Positions 7,438 through 24,575 of a stretch of 64,000 bases of DNA are shown in pieces. The number at the start of each line of letters is the position of its first letter. Within the stretch, counting starts at the first letter, position 1. The notes beneath the pieces are model-generated. The model did not search any database and was not told the DNA's origin. It worked only from the letters and a program-made list of their open reading frames with translations. Source of the DNA: an uncultured Thermoanaerobaculia bacterium (lineage in GTDB: Bacteria; Acidobacteriota; Thermoanaerobaculia; Multivoradales; Multivoraceae); contig OX638294.1 in the NCBI GenBank assembly GCA_951812325.1, positions 529,136 to 593,135 of the forward strand, written 5' to 3'. A program made the position numbers and the translations under genes.

Positions 7438-10400
7438 TCAGCGTCCCGAGGCGACGATCTCAAGGGCGTCGAGAACCTTCTGCGCCTGCTTGCGGTCGAG
7501 ATACGGATGAGCGAACTGGTTGCGATAGCTCCGCAGGCAGCCGTAGCAACTGACATCGCAGCCGCAGCCGCCGGCCACCCGGCGGCGGGCGCCGGCGAGC
7601 ACCCTCATGAGGACGTCGTCGTCGTCCAGTTGCGTGACCAGACCGGCGCCGCCGGGAACGTTGTCGTACAGCACGACCGCCGATGCGTCAGGCACGCTCC
7701 CGGCGGCGATGGTGACGTTCAGGTCGTTCTGCGGAACGCCGATCGCGTCTGCGGCACCAAGGAGAACGGCGTAGGCGACCGAGTAGGCCGGCCACTGGTC
7801 ACGCAGGTCCGGGAACTCCATGCGGACGACGTCCGTGACCAACTCGTGGCCCAGCGAGAACTGTTCGAGCATTCCCCTGCACTCCCGACCGGTCGGAGCC
7901 TCGTGTTTGGCCGTGCGCTTCGCAGAGTGGGCGCCGCATGATCGGCAAACGAGGAACCCCCGACCGCCATGGCCTTCGCAGAGTATGACCAGAGTTCCCG
8001 AGGCGGCCGAACTGACACGCAACCCACAACGAGTTTGTGCGATATCGGCGTCGGCGTCGGCGAAACCCTGGAAGAACGGACGAGTGCTGTACACCCTGTG
8101 CGCTCGTCGCCGGGGAGGCTTCGGGTCCCTGAACATGGGTGTGACGAAACCAAACCGGGGAATCAGGTACTTCTTCCGCACCTGGGCTGGCGCATCGGAG
8201 CTTCCCTCGGTCCACTGTTCGAAGCTCCGCGAGTCGTCGTGCCGGTACATCCGTACCGGCCATTCCTTGCCGGACACCTTCCTGATCCCGCAAGACTCCC
8301 ACTCGAGCTTGTTCGCCACGACCTTCCCGCCCGGCGCGTACTCGGCGATCGCCTGGGAGAGGTCCCGCTGAAGAGACACGTTCAGCCCCCCGCCCCGAAC
8401 CTGCCGGGTGTGCAGCTCGACAACATCAACCGGGAAGCCGTACTTGGGGATCACGGCCTTCCGCGACAGGAACTCCAGTGTCGACCGGCCGGCGACCGTG
8501 TCCATGCGCTTCTTGACATCCTCTGCCTTTCGATACCCGCGTCGAGCAACAGCTGTCGCTTCGATCTCTCCCAGTTCGAGGTACTCCGAGCAGACCTCCG
8601 CCTCGGCGAGCCCGAGCCGGCTGTCCGGACCTCCGATGCGTTCGATCCACCGCCGGTCGCGCAGGCCCACGGCATCCGCCACGCCCTCAGGGACGATCCG
8701 GATCAGCATGGACTCAATCGACGTCGAGTTCTCTTCGCACCAAGTGGTGAAATCCCCCGCAGCCCGCGGAGCCTTCCAATCCTCGATGAAGGCGGCGACG
8801 TTCGTGAACCGCTTCCGGTGACGATGGAAGAACCCACTCAGGACGGCCGCCGCCATGTGGCGCAAGACGATGCGATCGTTTGAAAGATGAAGTCTCGGCG
8901 GATCCACATCGCCGCGGATCATGCTCGCTTCCGGATCCTCGTAGTGATGGAGGTCGTGCGGGTTGCGCCGGCAGTATGTCACCGCGAGGCCGGCCCGCTC
9001 TCCGCGTCCGGCCCGCCCAACTCTCTGGACGTAGTTGAATGGTTCCGGCGGCACGTTGCGCAGGAACACCACGTCGAGATCACCGAGGCTCACGCCCACC
9101 TCGAACGTCGTTGAGGAACTGAGGAGCTCGACCTCCCCGTTCTTGAACTTCTCCTGCAGGCGACGGGCCTTTTCCGGAGCGACCTGCGCGGTGTGTTCTT
9201 CCGCTCGCAGCCGCGGCGGCAGGCTCGGGCTCTCGTAGAGAAGCCTGTAGTGGTTGTCCACAAAGGTCCCCGGGTTCGCCGGATGCAGACCTCCGCTACA
9301 GCCGATCCGGGGACACACACCCCGGACGAAGTGCGGGGTCACCGTGGTGCAGGTGTCGCAGCGCCAGATCGGGTCGTCTCCGACCGGGTGGAGGCGCAGC
9401 CACTCCGAGCCCAGACGAAACGTGCCATCGAACTTCTCGCGAACGAGCAGCATACCGGTCGAAACCGCTGTCAGCGCTTTCCAGATCCCATAGGCCGCCG
9501 CCGTGCTCGGTTCCAGGGCCGTCGCCGCATCCCGGCCGTTCTTGCCGAGAACCCGGGGAAGGAAGTGCTTGACGAGCCCGGAAGCCCGGCTTCCCCATTG
9601 GGCAACGTGAGGGCGACCGCCCGGTTTTCCCAGGCCGTAGGCTGTCTGAGGGAGCTTGGAGACGTCCCTCCATACCGGGGCACCCTCGGTCGAAGGCAAG
9701 CGGAGAGCACGACGGGCCGGAAACGCGCTGAGGCAGTACTGAACCAGGCTCGATGCCTCGACCTCCGTGAGGTTCCAAGGTGGAGCGAGCAGCTCAGGCG
9801 GTACCGAGAAGTCCGCGGGAAGCGCGACGGTCCAGCGAACGAGACCGACACCGCTCAGGGAGATCCGCCGTTCTTCCGTGACGATCTCACCAAGGATCGC
9901 CGTCAGGACACATCGCCGGTGGGACTCCGCGGTCTCCGAGGCTCCGAACAGCCCGGCGCGCTCCCGGATTCTCCGCAGTCTGCTCGCCAGATCCTCGATG
10001 CTCAGGCCCTCTCCGGCCGCCGCCTCCCGCGCCGCCCGGAAGATCAGGTTCCGGTCGAGCAACCGACGGTAGGAGTCCTGGGCGTACCACGCGAAAAACG
10101 CCGCCTCCTGCCGACTGTCCGCGAAGGCGAGCACCTTTCGCCGCTTCTCGGGAAGCAACTCGAGCAGGGCGGTCGCGATGACCGCGTTCGGGCCGTCCGA
10201 CCCGTGGACGATTTCCTGAACCGGGTCGCCGACGCCGCCGCGACGGTAGCCGCAAGCCTCACACTGGCGGAGCTGATCCGGGTGGTCCTTGTGGGTTCGG
10301 CAGCGCACGACCTTGATTCCTGCGTCGCAGTCGCAGGTCAGATCTCGACTGGTGACCAGGCCGCAGCGCCGGCATAGTGTCCTGTTCCCTTCTTCCGAGG

Positions 10401-23100: not shown

Positions 23101-24575
23101 GGCAGACCTTGGACGAACCGCCCTGGACTCTGGCGTTGTCGGCGCCTGAGGACGTGGAGGTGGACGAGGTTCTCTTCGACGACGATCCTCTGGAGCGGTT
23201 TGAAAAGGACTGGGAGATACCGTCCTGCGCCGGCAGATTACACGTCTTGACCGCCGACGCCCGGGCGCACAGCGTCGAGCTCTTCTCCGGAACGCCGCTC
23301 ATCTTCAAGTTGCCCGTCAACTGGGAGGGGCCGGGGCGTCGCGTCCGAGCGACGGGGCGAGGTCACTATCTCGTCGTGGCGCCCGAAGGCTGGCGGCGAA
23401 CGGGACACGTACCGGTCGCGCCTGATCCCTGTGGCGACGGCTTCCTGGCGCACTACTTCCACTTTGACGCTCACGGGCCGGCCGATGAACAGCAAGGCTT
23501 CGAGGAGTGCCCGCTCCCTTCCGTCGGTCCCGGCTTCACGCTGGGCGGTGACCGGGTCTTCGATGACGCCAGGGACGGTGGACTCTTCGGCGAGACACCG
23601 GGTTTGAATCTGGCCCCTGAGGTTCGAGCGGCCTGGGTCGGCATGGCGGATGGCAACGGCTGGCAGGGCGAGACGTTCGATCCGCGCACGACGGAGCTGT
23701 GGGAGGTGCTGGGTGACCGCGAGGGCTCGTTCGTCCTTCGGGTGTACGACGAATGGGGCCTGCGCGACAGCGGCCGGTTCCGCCTGTTGCGGGGGCTTCG
23801 AGAGATCGAGGTCGCCGGCGAGCCCTACACGGAGGGCACTCTTCTTGTACCGGGCGAGCGGGGCCAGCGCCCGGTGGTCGTTCGGCTTAGAGCCTCCGCA
23901 GCCTGCACGACCGGCCCGGATTGGGTCTTCAACTCAAGGACAAGCACGCCAGCGCCGGACGACGAGCAAGTCGATCTCCCGGTTGCGACGAACTCGGGCG
24001 CGGCGATAGTCGTCGTTCGACCGCCGCGTATCTGGTGGCGGCTCGAAGCGGTCCGGGGTGATATCGGCAGATGGGGCGCCAAGCCAATCGAACTGACGCG
24101 CGAGGAATTCATCACGGCGGCGGAGAACCAGGAGGCGCTTGTGGTGCTGCTGCCTCGAAGAGTGTCGGGCGTTCGCGCTGGTTTCGACCCGGGGGACACC
24201 CGAAGCTATCCCGCAAACCTGGAGGACGGCAGACGCCTTGCACGGCTACCGCTTCTCGCTTTCCGTGACTACAGGGCGGTGGCCCAGCCCATGCCCGCGG
24301 AGACGACATTCCTTGTGATCGTTGAGACGCACACGATGACGCCGATTCGGCTGCGCGAGGAGATTCTCCCCGCGGGAGCAACCGACGAAGCCGTCGCCGT
24401 TGCTGAAACGTCGAGGAGCGAACAGGAGGCCGAAGCGGGCGCATTTCCGATCGAATCGCCGGATCCCGTCGATCGACGCGTGAGTCGTCGGCGCAAAGCG
24501 AATCGAGCCCTGAGCGTTTGGACGCTCAGGTTTCTGAAGTGGGCCAGGTCTTGGAGCTCTTCCCGGCGTGAATGA
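20163..24575 (+). CDS. zorD: ZorD-like SNF2-family helicase with a ~480-aa C-terminal extension
   Basis: SNF2 motifs present: [101 protein letters not shown]. The last ~480 aa (from [14 protein letters not shown]) are paralogous to the C-terminus of the sigma-fusion protein. Confidence 0.75.
   Translation: [1470 protein letters not shown]

What the first reader, a model, noticed from the sequence alone, without database searches (positions are those of the whole stretch)
7438..24575. Zorya type I-like operon wired head-to-head to a sigma70-fusion + DUF1998-helicase operon: candidate undescribed six-gene defence system
Seen: a compact + strand operon with 7-nt and 8-nt gaps and one ATGA overlap. 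It encodes four proteins. (1) An 802-aa MotA/ExbB-like protein with a ~500-aa helical tail. (2) A 279-aa protein with a TM helix carrying an Asp, plus an OmpA-like peptidoglycan-binding domain. (3) A 483-aa protein. (4) A 1470-aa SNF2 helicase. Established: this order and these sizes match ZorA-ZorB-ZorC-ZorD of type I Zorya (Doron et al. 2018). Four features are not canonical. (i) The ZorD-like protein carries an extra ~480-aa C-terminal region. (ii) The same module ends a divergently transcribed 1259-aa protein whose N-terminal half is a near-canonical sigma70 regions 2-4. (iii) That gene overlaps by 17 nt a 1415-aa DEAH helicase with a DUF1998/MZB zinc domain, the helicase type seen in MrfA, DISARM DrmA/B and Druantia DruE. 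(iv) The two operons are separated by at most ~220 bp. Inference: the shared module argues that all six genes act together. One hypothesis is that the sigma70 part is an integrated decoy or sensor for phage anti-sigma or RNAP-hijacking factors. Another is that it tethers the effector helicases to RNA polymerase. In both, the shared module would dock both proteins onto the ZorAB/ZorC machinery.
Basis: partly seen in the sequence, partly recalled or inferred. Interest (0 to 1): 0.93.

Follow-up and report, generated by a model that had tools for sequence, protein, structure and literature searches.

The report
Zorya I beside sigma-fused Druantia-like pair
Two anti-phage systems sit head-to-head in an Acidobacteriota genome: a type I Zorya and a Druantia-III-like helicase pair. 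They share one duplicated protein module, and the helicase's partner carries a copy of the housekeeping sigma factor, which may show how such systems cooperate.

Summary
All six ORFs, the 17-nt overlap, the ATGA overlap and the short divergent spacer are present. HMMs assign ZorA/B/C/D (type I Zorya) with E 1e-72 to 1e-286. The shared module is real (44% identity over 450 aa, E 3e-92).

The DUF1998 helicase is a nuclease-less DruE-like (Druantia III-like) YprA helicase. The shared module is the core of that helicase's usual partner protein. This is a large unannotated family: an Ig-like beta-sandwich array plus an eL13-like tail, in at least 1,278 clusters at 50% identity. In 71 of 80 genomes the helicase lies directly downstream of the partner gene, and no third gene is conserved.

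At one chromosomal hotspot in nine related genomes, four carry the pair alone, one carries Zorya alone, and four carry both. The two systems are therefore separable.

ZorD carries the module only where the pair is adjacent. That copy is an old, conserved duplicate of the neighbour's module. An unrelated genome fuses the same module to a ZorD/DpdE-type SNF2 helicase without ZorABC.

The RpoD-derived sigma domain is confined to this clade. Head-to-head Zorya II/Druantia III with synergy is already known in E. coli.

Verdict: a new variant of known kinds, and an interesting one.

The parts
7438..11685 (-). DruE-like YprA-family helicase, 1415 aa from the ATG at 11685 (the maximal ORF reaches 11742). 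It has a Walker A motif (GTASGKTE), a DEAH box, several CxxC zinc modules and a C-terminal MZB/DUF1998 domain. No nuclease domain follows the MZB.
   Evidence: PADLOC DruE1 2e-144 and DruE3 1.6e-141. Pfam DEAD, Helicase_C and MZB. Sequence motifs. 28-31% identity to E. coli DruE over residues 38-380 and 1071-1712 of that protein; its PLD region 1713-2104 has no counterpart here. PDB DruE 9tu7, E 1.4e-78.
11669..15448 (-). P2, a 1259-aa fusion protein. Order of parts: coiled coil, RpoD-like sigma r2-r4, linker, r1.2-like motif, coiled coil, Pro-rich linker, Ig-like array module, eL13-like tail. It overlaps the helicase gene by 17 nt.
   Evidence: It is a single ORF in the orthologs L004, L005, L006, L008 and L089.
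14237..15043 (-). Sigma-70 regions 2, 3 and 4 (ORF aa 173-441), derived from a primary sigma factor. The -10 determinants ([11 protein letters not shown]), the -35 determinants (TRERIRQI) and the core-binding region 2.2 are all present.
   Evidence: Pfam r2 6.6e-18, r3 4.9e-22, r4 2.4e-17. NCBIfam RpoD NF004208 419 bits, and RpoD_Cterm 329 bits against a cutoff of 354. PDB RpoD/SigA E 1e-89 against RpoS 1e-57.
13964..14044 (-). A sigma region 1.2-like motif placed after region 4 (ORF aa 506-532). This order is out of the canonical sequence.
   Evidence: Pfam Sigma70_r1_2, 25.5 bits against a cutoff of 22. Weak alignment to RpoD r1.2. Conserved in the orthologs.
13798..13860 (.). A REP/MITE-like double-hairpin repeat inserted in frame into the P2 linker. 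It encodes about 23 aa that the orthologs lack.
   Evidence: Other copies lie at 34534-34595, 41637-41693 and 56835-56892.
11876..13225 (-). Partner module, P2 copy (ORF aa 779-1228): an all-beta array of Ig-like sandwiches.
   Evidence: AF2 model with pLDDT 84.5. Foldseek returns only generic Ig arrays. Family searches.
11672..11875 (-). eL13-like C-terminal tail of P2 (ORF aa 1229-1296). In this clade the family's basic RRR motif is replaced by acidic residues.
   Evidence: Family profile against PDB eL13, E 1.1e-9. Pfam Ribosomal_L13e hits in relatives. Alignments.
15449..15671 (.). Divergent spacer between P2 and zorA. Its length is uncertain because the zorA start is uncertain. It contains a leader of about 60 nt upstream of P2 that is conserved in relatives with and without Zorya.
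   Evidence: No sigma-70 consensus promoter was detected by the simple scan.
15453..17861 (+). ZorA: MotA-like membrane part plus a long helical tail. The maximal ORF is 802 aa; the likely start is between 15570 and 15672. The tail carries a tandem duplication of about 51 aa.
   Evidence: PADLOC ZorA1 1.6e-141. NCBIfam antiphage_ZorA_1 188 bits against a cutoff of 190. Duplication.
17868..18707 (+). ZorB, 279 aa: a TM helix with a conserved Asp and an OmpA-like peptidoglycan-binding domain.
   Evidence: PADLOC ZorB1 1.6e-72. Pfam OmpA 1.4e-4. Sequence.
18715..20166 (+). ZorC, 483 aa, with the EH signature.
   Evidence: PADLOC ZorC1 3e-98. Pfam EH_Signature 9.1e-42.
20163..23042 (+). ZorD core (aa 1-960): N-terminal domain plus SNF2 ATPase. 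No Mrr nuclease domain is present.
   Evidence: PADLOC ZorD1 3.9e-286, covering profile positions up to 975 of 1012. Pfam SNF2-rel_dom and Helicase_C. Most relatives carry PF04471 (Mrr_cat) instead.
23040..24353 (+). Partner module, ZorD copy (aa 960-1397), a paralogue of the P2 module. It is followed by an acidic/basic tail (24354-24575) rather than the eL13-like tail.
   Evidence: BLASTP 44% identity, E 3e-92. It keeps all 15 family-invariant residues. 77% identical to the Holophagales ZorD copy. Sister to the P2 clade in 50 of 50 bootstraps.

Best explanation
The 17-kb block holds two separable anti-phage systems inserted at one chromosomal hotspot of an Acidobacteriota genome, probably a sponge or coral symbiont.

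System 1 is a type I Zorya, zorABCD. From published work on E. coli Zorya, ZorAB is a proton-driven envelope-anchored motor that senses phage entry and recruits the DNA-acting effectors ZorC and ZorD.

System 2 is a Druantia type III-like two-gene cassette. It consists of a fast-evolving partner protein followed by a well-conserved, nuclease-less DruE-like YprA helicase. By analogy with E. coli DruE, this helicase would load on 3'-tailed ssDNA and unwind phage DNA. By analogy with DruH, the partner would be the sensor or substrate-binding subunit: an Ig-like array with an eL13-like tail that may bind nucleic acid.

In this lineage the two systems have become linked.
- A duplicate of the partner's Ig-array module has been fused to the C-terminus of ZorD, at the position where most ZorD relatives carry an Mrr nuclease domain.
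- The partner has acquired an N-terminal RpoD-derived sigma r2-r4 domain.

Inferred: the module is a helicase-coupling or substrate-recognition adaptor. The ZorD copy lets the Zorya effector act on, or together with, the same target as the DruE-like helicase. This would be a hard-wired version of the Zorya/Druantia synergy known in E. coli.

More weakly inferred: the sigma domain either tethers the sensor to RNA polymerase core or promoter DNA, or acts as a bait for phage proteins that bind the host primary sigma.

What is shown: gene content, homologies, distribution, duplication history and conservation. What is inferred: all biochemical activities, the physical coupling and the role of the sigma domain.
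For: Identities:
- PADLOC, Pfam and NCBIfam hits for ZorABCD and DruE.
- The helicase lacks the PLD region of E. coli DruE.

Two-gene cassette:
- The module gene and the DruE-like gene are the only conserved families across 80 genome loci, present in 77 and 71 loci. The helicase lies immediately downstream on the same strand.
- The helicase is 50-66% identical across phyla. The partner is only 27-41% identical. The same asymmetry is reported for DruE and DruH (PMC13192584).

Separability at one hotspot (flanking proteins 77-96% identical):
- Pair only: L006, L007, L008, L089.
- Zorya only: L086, where ZorD is 1020 aa with no module.
- Both: the window, L001, L004, L005.
- The leader of about 60 nt upstream of P2 is conserved with or without Zorya.

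Link between the systems:
- Of 143 ZorD relatives, only the window's cluster and the Holophagales protein P0068 carry the module. P0068 comes from the L005 contig, which also has the pair.
- The ZorD copies are sister to the P2-clade modules in 50 of 50 bootstraps.
- The ZorD copy keeps all family-invariant residues. It is 77% identical between the two ZorDs, against 80% for the whole protein.
- L073 has an independent fusion of the module with a DpdE/ZorD-family SNF2 helicase next to a DruE-like gene, with no ZorABC.

Precedent:
- E. coli zorABE and druHE are divergent with a 211-bp spacer and act synergistically.
- 90% of Druantia-associated ZorE proteins carry an extra C-terminal region, and Druantia can recruit ZorE independently of ZorAB (PMC13192584).

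Sigma domain:
- Its best matches are primary sigma factors, with DNA-recognition and core-binding motifs intact.
Against: - No sequence homology between the partner module and canonical DruH. PADLOC DruH models give no hit even at E<=10. hhalign against E. coli DruH gives probability 0.4%. The DruH-like role therefore rests on position, Ig-like architecture and evolutionary rate only.
- No nuclease domain is recognisable anywhere in the six genes, so the killing or clearing step is unexplained. It would be explained if the ZorD SNF2 domain has the nuclease activity reported for E. coli ZorD (PMC11946911).
- No interaction has been tested; no multimer prediction was available.
- The sigma domain is dispensable for the rest of the protein in at least one relative (L007) and is absent from nearly all family members.
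- Whether ZorD in L004 carries the module could not be seen, because the locus is cut there.
- The genome scan used a narrow peptide pattern, so the 80 loci are a biased sample of a family with at least 1,278 clusters.
Confidence: 0.7

Rival explanations
1. The six genes form one integrated, undescribed defence system. The shared module docks both ZorD and the sigma-fusion protein onto the ZorAB/ZorC machinery. The sigma part works as a decoy or as an RNAP tether.
For: - Tight head-to-head layout with a spacer of 220 bp or less.
- The shared module.
- The ZorD module is seen only when the pair is adjacent.
- The block is conserved as a unit in L001, L004 and L005.
Against: - The module family is tied to the DruE-like helicase in 71 of 80 loci, and Zorya is present in only 2 of those.
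- The sigma-fusion/helicase pair stands alone at the same hotspot in four close relatives.
- Zorya stands alone in L086.
- The module is fused to an SNF2 helicase without ZorABC in L073.
Confidence: 0.12
2. Mere neighbours. Two independent systems share a defence hotspot, and the module on ZorD is a by-product of local duplication with no role in cross-talk.
For: - Defence systems cluster at hotspots.
- Both systems occur separately in relatives.
- No interaction data exist.
Against: - The ZorD copy is old yet conserved: 77% identity between two ZorDs against 80% for the whole protein, with all invariant residues kept.
- Among 143 ZorD relatives it is found only where the pair is adjacent.
- The module has been independently fused to a ZorD/DpdE-type helicase in another phylum.
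- Synergy and effector extensions are documented for Zorya II/Druantia III (PMC13192584).
Confidence: 0.13
3. P2 is mainly a transcription factor: a bona fide alternative or primary-like sigma factor. Its C-terminal sensor releases or activates it on infection to switch on the two operons or other genes.
For: - Regions r2-r4 are intact with promoter-recognition residues.
- P2 sits at a divergent promoter region.
- A sigma-70 family protein, MzaA, is already catalogued as part of the MZA anti-phage system (NCBIfam NF041931 and PADLOC MzaA).
Against: - The recognition residues are those of the housekeeping sigma, so no private promoter specificity is apparent.
- No sigma-70 consensus promoter was found in the spacer by the simple scan.
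- Relative L007 lacks the sigma part but keeps the pair.
- More than a thousand family clusters work without any sigma domain.
Confidence: 0.05

Closest known systems
Type I Zorya (ZorABCD; Doron et al. 2018; Hu et al. 2024, PMC11946911)
   Same: Gene order, gene sizes and all four family signatures match. ZorB has the TM Asp and a peptidoglycan-binding domain. ZorA has a long tail.
   Different: ZorD carries an extra C-terminal region of about 480 aa that is a paralogue of the neighbouring system's partner protein. It lacks the Mrr nuclease domain present in most close relatives. The ZorA tail has a tandem duplication of about 51 aa.
Druantia type III (DruH-DruE), especially the nuclease-less 'III-B / III-like' DruE branch (bioRxiv 10.1101/2025.09.15.676423; 10.64898/2026.05.13.724758)
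   Same: A two-gene cassette with the partner upstream of a large YprA/DUF1998 helicase and overlapping reading frames. The helicase matches DruE models. The partner is rich in Ig-like domains and evolves much faster than the helicase.
   Different: The partner shows no detectable sequence similarity to DruH (YjiT family). It has an eL13-like tail, and in this clade an RpoD-derived sigma domain. The helicase has no PLD or Vsr nuclease.
E. coli Zorya II / Druantia III (/ARMADA II) island (OI-172; Wu et al. 2024; PMC13192584; bioRxiv 10.1101/2025.09.22.677730)
   Same: The Zorya operon is transcribed divergently from the partner-helicase operon across about 200 bp. The Zorya effector next to Druantia carries an extra C-terminal region.
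   Different: This locus has Zorya type I (ZorC/ZorD) rather than type II (ZorE). The extension is a recognisable copy of the partner's own module. No ARMADA is present and no mobile-element genes are visible. The host is Acidobacteriota.
MzaA, the sigma-70 family protein of the MZA candidate anti-phage system (NCBIfam NF041931; PADLOC PDLC02203)
   Same: An RpoD-like sigma r2-r4 domain embedded in a larger defence-associated protein.
   Different: Only the sigma part matches (profile positions 447-716). The score of 332 bits is far below the family cutoff of 800. The other MZA genes are absent. Here the sigma domain is N-terminal to a large extension, whereas in MzaA it is C-terminal.

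Membership tests
Zorya type I | ZorA: MotA/ExbB-like membrane protein with a long cytoplasmic helical tail | tested here: met
   PADLOC ZorA1 1.6e-141. NCBIfam ZorA_1 188.2 bits, just under the cutoff of 190. The helical tail is seen in the translation.
Zorya type I | ZorB: MotB-like protein with a TM Asp and a peptidoglycan-binding domain | tested here: met
   PADLOC ZorB1 1.6e-72. OmpA 1.4e-4, below the Pfam cutoff. 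Asp in the TM helix.
Zorya type I | ZorC with the EH signature, ZorD an SNF2 helicase, genes in the order zorABCD | tested here: met
   ZorC1 3e-98 and EH_Signature 9e-42. ZorD1 3.9e-286 and SNF2-rel_dom 1.3e-36. Order and spacing. NCBIfam ZorD scores 223 bits, below its equivalog cutoff of 1500, so this is a divergent ZorD.
Zorya type I | Confers phage resistance that requires ZorAB motor function | not testable with these tools
   Needs a phage challenge experiment.
Druantia type III | DruE: large YprA-family DExH helicase with OB-CON-DUF1998 | tested here: met
   PADLOC DruE1 2e-144 and DruE3 1.6e-141. Pfam MZB 4.9e-11. PDB DruE 9tu7, 1.4e-78.
Druantia type III | C-terminal PLD nuclease domains on DruE (subtype III-A) | tested here: not met
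   The protein ends right after the MZB domain. The alignment to E. coli DruE stops at residue 1712 of 2104. This is consistent with the nuclease-less III-B/III-like branch.
Druantia type III | DruH (YjiT family) encoded upstream of druE | tested here: not met
   No PADLOC DruH hit for P2, the ZorD C-terminus or four family members at E<=10. E. coli DruH scores 2555 bits on the same models. hhalign of the family profile against E. coli DruH gives probability 0.4%. Fold-level similarity could not be tested because no DruH structure appeared among the PDB hits.
Primary (group 1) sigma factor RpoD/SigA | Regions 1.1, 1.2, 2, 3 and 4 in canonical order, scoring above family cutoffs | tested here: not met
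   r2-r4 are present and RpoD-like, but RpoD_Cterm scores 329 against a cutoff of 354 and NF004208 scores 419 against 555. r1.1 is absent and the r1.2-like motif lies after r4. The domain sits inside a 1259-aa protein.
MZA system (MzaA) | Full-length MzaA match and presence of the partner genes MzaB-E | tested here: not met
   Only the sigma part matches. The score is 332 bits against a cutoff of 800. No other Mza hits were found among the six proteins.

The most novel reading that the evidence does not exclude
The Ig-array partner module is a portable adaptor that physically couples SNF2 helicases of the ZorD/DpdE type to DruE-like YprA helicases. In this lineage that coupling has welded a membrane-triggered Zorya to a cytoplasmic Druantia-like system, forming one hybrid machine. 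The RpoD-derived sigma domain on the sensor subunit reads out the state of the host transcription apparatus, either by riding on RNA polymerase or promoter DNA or by baiting phage proteins that bind the primary sigma. This would be a mode of infection sensing not yet described for any defence system.
Probability: 0.25. Interest if true: 0.85.

Novelty: new variant of a known kind. Interest (0 to 1): 0.66.

Why it matters
Cooperation between Zorya and Druantia III is an active question, and its physical basis is unknown. This locus offers a natural "Rosetta-stone" clue. The Zorya effector ZorD carries a conserved copy of the module that normally partners the DruE-like helicase, and the same module is independently fused to a ZorD/DpdE-type helicase elsewhere.

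That points to a concrete, testable interface: module with helicase, or module with DNA.

The analysis also defines a large, unannotated partner family of at least 1,278 clusters at 50% identity, with an eL13-like tail. This family extends Druantia-like cassettes into many uncultured phyla.

Finally, it shows a near-canonical housekeeping sigma domain recruited into a defence protein. That makes the idea of sensing phage takeover of transcription directly testable.

Tried and rejected
1. Is the module a DruH homologue? PADLOC DruH models gave no hit at E<=10. hhalign against E. coli DruH and against a C. butyricum DruE partner gave nothing. Rejected at the sequence level.
2. Foldseek of the module model against PDB and BFVD returned only generic Ig-domain arrays with TM below 0.2 and no specific relative.
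3. Structure of the P2 N-terminal half. The single-sequence AF2 model was unusable at pLDDT 41.7. Whether the r1.2-like motif packs back on region 2 is therefore unknown.
4. Other N-terminal domains in long family members: none found in Pfam.
5. The apparent split of P2 into two genes in L001 is a 10-N scaffold gap, not biology.
6. The 238-aa ORF overlapping the zorD stop (24572-25288) is an alternative-frame artefact of the acetyl-CoA hydrolase gene. It is not a seventh gene.
7. A metagenome scan with the ZorD module alone found nothing. A scan with a clade alignment found only L089. A viral-contig scan found nothing.
8. Look-up of the window's own ZorD contig returned no record.
9. E. coli plasmid hits to the helicase turned out to be ARMADA II, not Druantia.
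10. Literature searches for MzaA/Mza gave nothing useful.
11. A simple promoter and terminator scan of the spacer found no sites.

Full report
**1. What is there**

The window is high-G+C DNA (about 0.70). The block 7438-24575 dips to 0.65-0.68. Six long ORFs fill it.

On the minus strand:
- A helicase at 7438-11742. Its likely start is M20, ATG at 11685, giving 1415 aa.
- A gene called P2 here at 11669-15559. The ATG at 15448 gives 1259 aa.
- The two genes overlap by 17 nt.

On the plus strand:
- ZorA 15453-17861, the maximal ORF of 802 aa.
- ZorB 17868-18707.
- ZorC 18715-20166.
- ZorD 20163-24575 (1470 aa).
- The gaps are 6 and 7 nt, and zorC/zorD overlap by ATGA.

The ZorA HMM match starts at residue 76. 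The real start is therefore probably between 15570 and 15672, leaving a divergent spacer of about 120-220 bp.

The flanks are housekeeping genes. On one side lie a luciferase-like oxidoreductase, YjgF, MgtE, RecO and MutL. On the other lie acetyl-CoA hydrolase, GST, TerC and CofD/CofC. There is no tRNA or integrase. A 238-aa ORF overlapping the zorD stop is an alternative-frame artefact of the acetyl-CoA hydrolase gene.

**2. Identities**

PADLOC gives ZorA1 1.6e-141, ZorB1 1.6e-72, ZorC1 3e-98 and ZorD1 3.9e-286. Pfam adds EH_Signature, SNF2-rel_dom and Helicase_C. ZorB has the TM Asp. The type I Zorya assignment stands.

The minus-strand helicase is DruE-like:
- PADLOC DruE1 2e-144 and DruE3 1.6e-141.
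- Pfam DEAD, Helicase_C and MZB.
- PDB DruE 9tu7, 1.4e-78.
- It aligns with E. coli DruE only up to residue 1712 of 2104 and ends right after the MZB zinc cluster, so it has no PLD nuclease.

This fits the nuclease-less "Druantia III-B / III-like" branch described in bioRxiv 10.1101/2025.09.15.676423.

P2 carries Sigma70 r2, r3 and r4 (E 1e-17 to 1e-22). It also has an r1.2-like motif located after r4. Its best matches are primary sigma factors:
- NCBIfam RpoD 419 bits, and RpoD_Cterm 329 bits against a cutoff of 354.
- PDB RpoD/SigA 1e-89 against RpoS 1e-57.
- The -10, -35 and core-binding motifs are present.

It also hits MzaA, the sigma-70 family protein catalogued for the MZA anti-phage system, but far below that family's cutoff.

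**3. The shared module**

ZorD aa 960-1397 and P2 aa 779-1228 are 44% identical (E 3e-92).

Searches with either copy find stand-alone proteins of 500-900 aa with no Pfam, NCBIfam or PADLOC annotation. A full HMMER scan finds 1,278 clusters at 50% identity with E<=1e-30.

Members share this layout:
- a disordered N-terminus;
- a conserved core of about 450 aa;
- often an extra Ig-like insert;
- a C-terminal motif resembling ribosomal protein eL13 (PDB eL13 1.1e-9; weak Pfam PF01294).

An AF2 model of the P2 copy (pLDDT 84.5) is an all-beta string of sandwiches followed by a small helical tail. Foldseek returns only generic Ig arrays.

No similarity to canonical DruH is detectable. E. coli DruH was fetched from EDL933 and scores 2555 bits on PADLOC DruH3, while the module family scores nothing. 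hhalign gives probability 0.4%.

**4. Neighbourhoods**

A scan of one genome per GTDB species returned 80 loci from many phyla, all of them MAGs.

tblastn and an all-against-all clustering of their ORFs show only two conserved gene families:
- the module protein, in 77 loci;
- a DruE-like helicase, in 71 loci, with a median length of 1411 aa, immediately downstream on the same strand.

The next most frequent family is in 6 loci. This is therefore a strict two-gene cassette in variable contexts.

The helicase is 50-66% identical to the window's. The partner is only 27-41% identical. Wu et al. report the same asymmetry for DruE and DruH and take it as a sign that DruH is the phage sensor (PMC13192584).

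Zorya genes lie next to the cassette only in L004 and L005 among these 80 loci, and in L001 from an ENA metagenome.

**5. One hotspot, three configurations**

Nine related Acidobacteriota genomes share the same chromosomal site. Their flanking proteins are 77-96% identical.
- L006, L007, L008 and L089 have P2 plus the helicase directly next to acetyl-CoA hydrolase, with no Zorya.
- L086 has a type I Zorya alone, with a 1020-aa ZorD and no module.
- The window, L001, L004 and L005 have both systems.

The 60 nt upstream of the P2 start are conserved whether or not Zorya is present. The two systems are thus separable, and each has its own regulatory region.

The apparent split of P2 in L001 is a scaffold gap. 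P2 is a single ORF in L004, L005, L006, L008 and L089. L007 has a clean deletion of sigma r2-r4.

**6. Evidence for a real link**

- Among 143 ZorD relatives (E<=1e-50), only the window's cluster and the Holophagales protein P0068 carry the module. P0068 comes from the L005 contig. Most of the others end in an Mrr nuclease domain, and the closest module-less relatives are about 1020 aa.
- In a neighbour-joining tree of 82 module cores, the two ZorD copies group together. They are sister to the P2-clade modules, and the two groups together form a clade, each in 50 of 50 bootstraps. The ZorD copy is therefore an old duplicate of the neighbour's module.
- The ZorD copy keeps all 15 family-invariant residues. 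It is 77% identical between the two ZorDs, against 80% for the whole protein. It is being maintained.
- In L073 (Longimicrobiales), a 1756-aa ORF fuses the module to a DpdE/ZorD-family SNF2 helicase (PADLOC DpdE 3.9e-171, ZorD1 6.8e-108). This ORF sits next to a DruE-like gene, and no ZorABC is present.

These findings argue that the module works with helicases, namely the DruE-like helicase and ZorD/DpdE-type SNF2 helicases. They argue against a role as a docking device for ZorAB/ZorC.

**7. Comparison with the known**

In E. coli EDL933, zorABE (type II) is divergent from druHE across 211 bp. The two systems synergise. 90% of Druantia-associated ZorE proteins carry an extra C-terminal region, and Druantia can recruit ZorE without ZorAB (PMC13192584; bioRxiv 10.1101/2025.09.22.677730).

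E. coli DruH has been characterised in two preprints:
- It is an Ig-rich protein that binds ssDNA and is inhibited by ATP (bioRxiv 10.64898/2026.05.12.722862).
- It is a likely sensor with some nuclease activity (PMC13192584).

E. coli ZorD is an autoinhibited SNF2 nuclease recruited by the ZorA tail (PMC11946911).

The window is therefore a type I Zorya next to a Druantia III-like cassette. It has three new features:
- a partner family unrelated in sequence to DruH;
- an RpoD-derived sigma domain on that partner, confined to this clade;
- a paralogous partner module on ZorD.

**8. Mechanism, with levels of support**

Shown: composition, separability, duplication history and conservation.

Inferred from homologues: ZorAB senses entry and recruits ZorC/ZorD. 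The DruE-like helicase loads on ssDNA-containing phage DNA. The partner is the sensor or substrate-binding subunit.

Inferred here, with moderate support: the module on ZorD couples the Zorya effector to the DruE-like helicase or to its substrate.

Weakly supported: the role of the sigma domain. My estimates are:
- RNAP or promoter tether, about 35%;
- bait for phage proteins that bind the primary sigma, about 30%;
- regulator, about 10%;
- other, the remainder.

In the sigma-fused clade, the eL13-like tail has lost the basic RRR motif that the rest of the family keeps. This may mean the sigma domain took over a nucleic-acid-binding role; that is speculation.

No nuclease domain is recognisable in the block.

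**9. Verdict**

The locus is not a categorically new six-gene system. It is a new and informative variant of the Zorya/Druantia partnership.

Noticed in passing
window 13798-13860; also 34534-34595, 41637-41693 and 56835-56892: A double-hairpin repeat of about 65 nt occurs four times in the window (RNA fold -50.9 kcal/mol, z -6.2). One copy sits in frame inside the P2 linker and encodes about 23 aa that all orthologs lack. It looks like a REP/MITE-like element tolerated within a coding region.
   Followed up: partly
window 16794-17099 (ZorA ORF aa 448-549): The ZorA tail contains a near-exact tandem duplication of about 51 aa ([15 protein letters not shown]...AATAM.AAV). In E. coli, tail length is reported to matter for Zorya signalling.
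   Followed up: no
L004-L083 (record titles): All 80 genome loci with the module/DruE-like cassette are MAGs. Many carry names typical of sponge or coral symbionts (Poribacteria, Poriferihabitaceae, Azotimanducaceae, SAR202, Latescibacterota, Binatia, 'Plut_' bins). This suggests spread across many phyla within holobiont communities. The habitat is inferred from the names only.
   Followed up: no
L073 8633-13903 and 14489-18139: A 1756-aa ORF fuses the partner module (N-terminal half) to a DpdE/ZorD-family SNF2 helicase. It is followed by a DruE-like helicase, and no ZorABC is present.
   Followed up: partly
L013 4374-15062: A module protein without a DruE-like gene. It is flanked by an HTH-SF2 helicase with NOV_C (PADLOC HmaA 1.3e-170), a GmrSD_N protein and an AAA_15/21 ATPase. 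This is a different defence-island context.
   Followed up: partly
L007 8495-11485: A natural P2 ortholog with a clean deletion of sigma regions 2-4. Everything else is intact and the DruE-like gene lies downstream. This is a ready-made sigma-less comparator.
   Followed up: partly
L085 (Ralstonia solanacearum megaplasmid) 5950-11856: The C-terminus of a 1968-aa DruE (aa 1808-1964) matches the C-terminal region of a PADLOC ZorD1 model (PDLC00634 positions 1050-1205, E 4e-6). This would be another domain shared between DruE and ZorD lineages.
   Followed up: no
window 11672-11875 and family members: The C-terminal tail of the partner family resembles the conserved motif of eukaryotic/archaeal ribosomal protein eL13 (PDB eL13 E 1e-9). 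This is unusual for a bacterial protein. The sigma-fused clade has replaced the motif's basic RRR with acidic residues.
   Followed up: partly
window 15449-15510 and the equivalent region in L001, L005, L006 and L089: A block of about 60 nt just upstream of the P2 start (…GGTCGGATGGCATCATCGC…) is conserved whether or not Zorya lies upstream. It is a candidate promoter or leader of the P2-helicase operon.
   Followed up: partly
window 38196-40373: There is strong AT skew (0.31). The plus-strand ORF translates to a low-complexity charged sequence and is probably the antisense of a membrane-protein gene on the minus strand (38194-40613).
   Followed up: no
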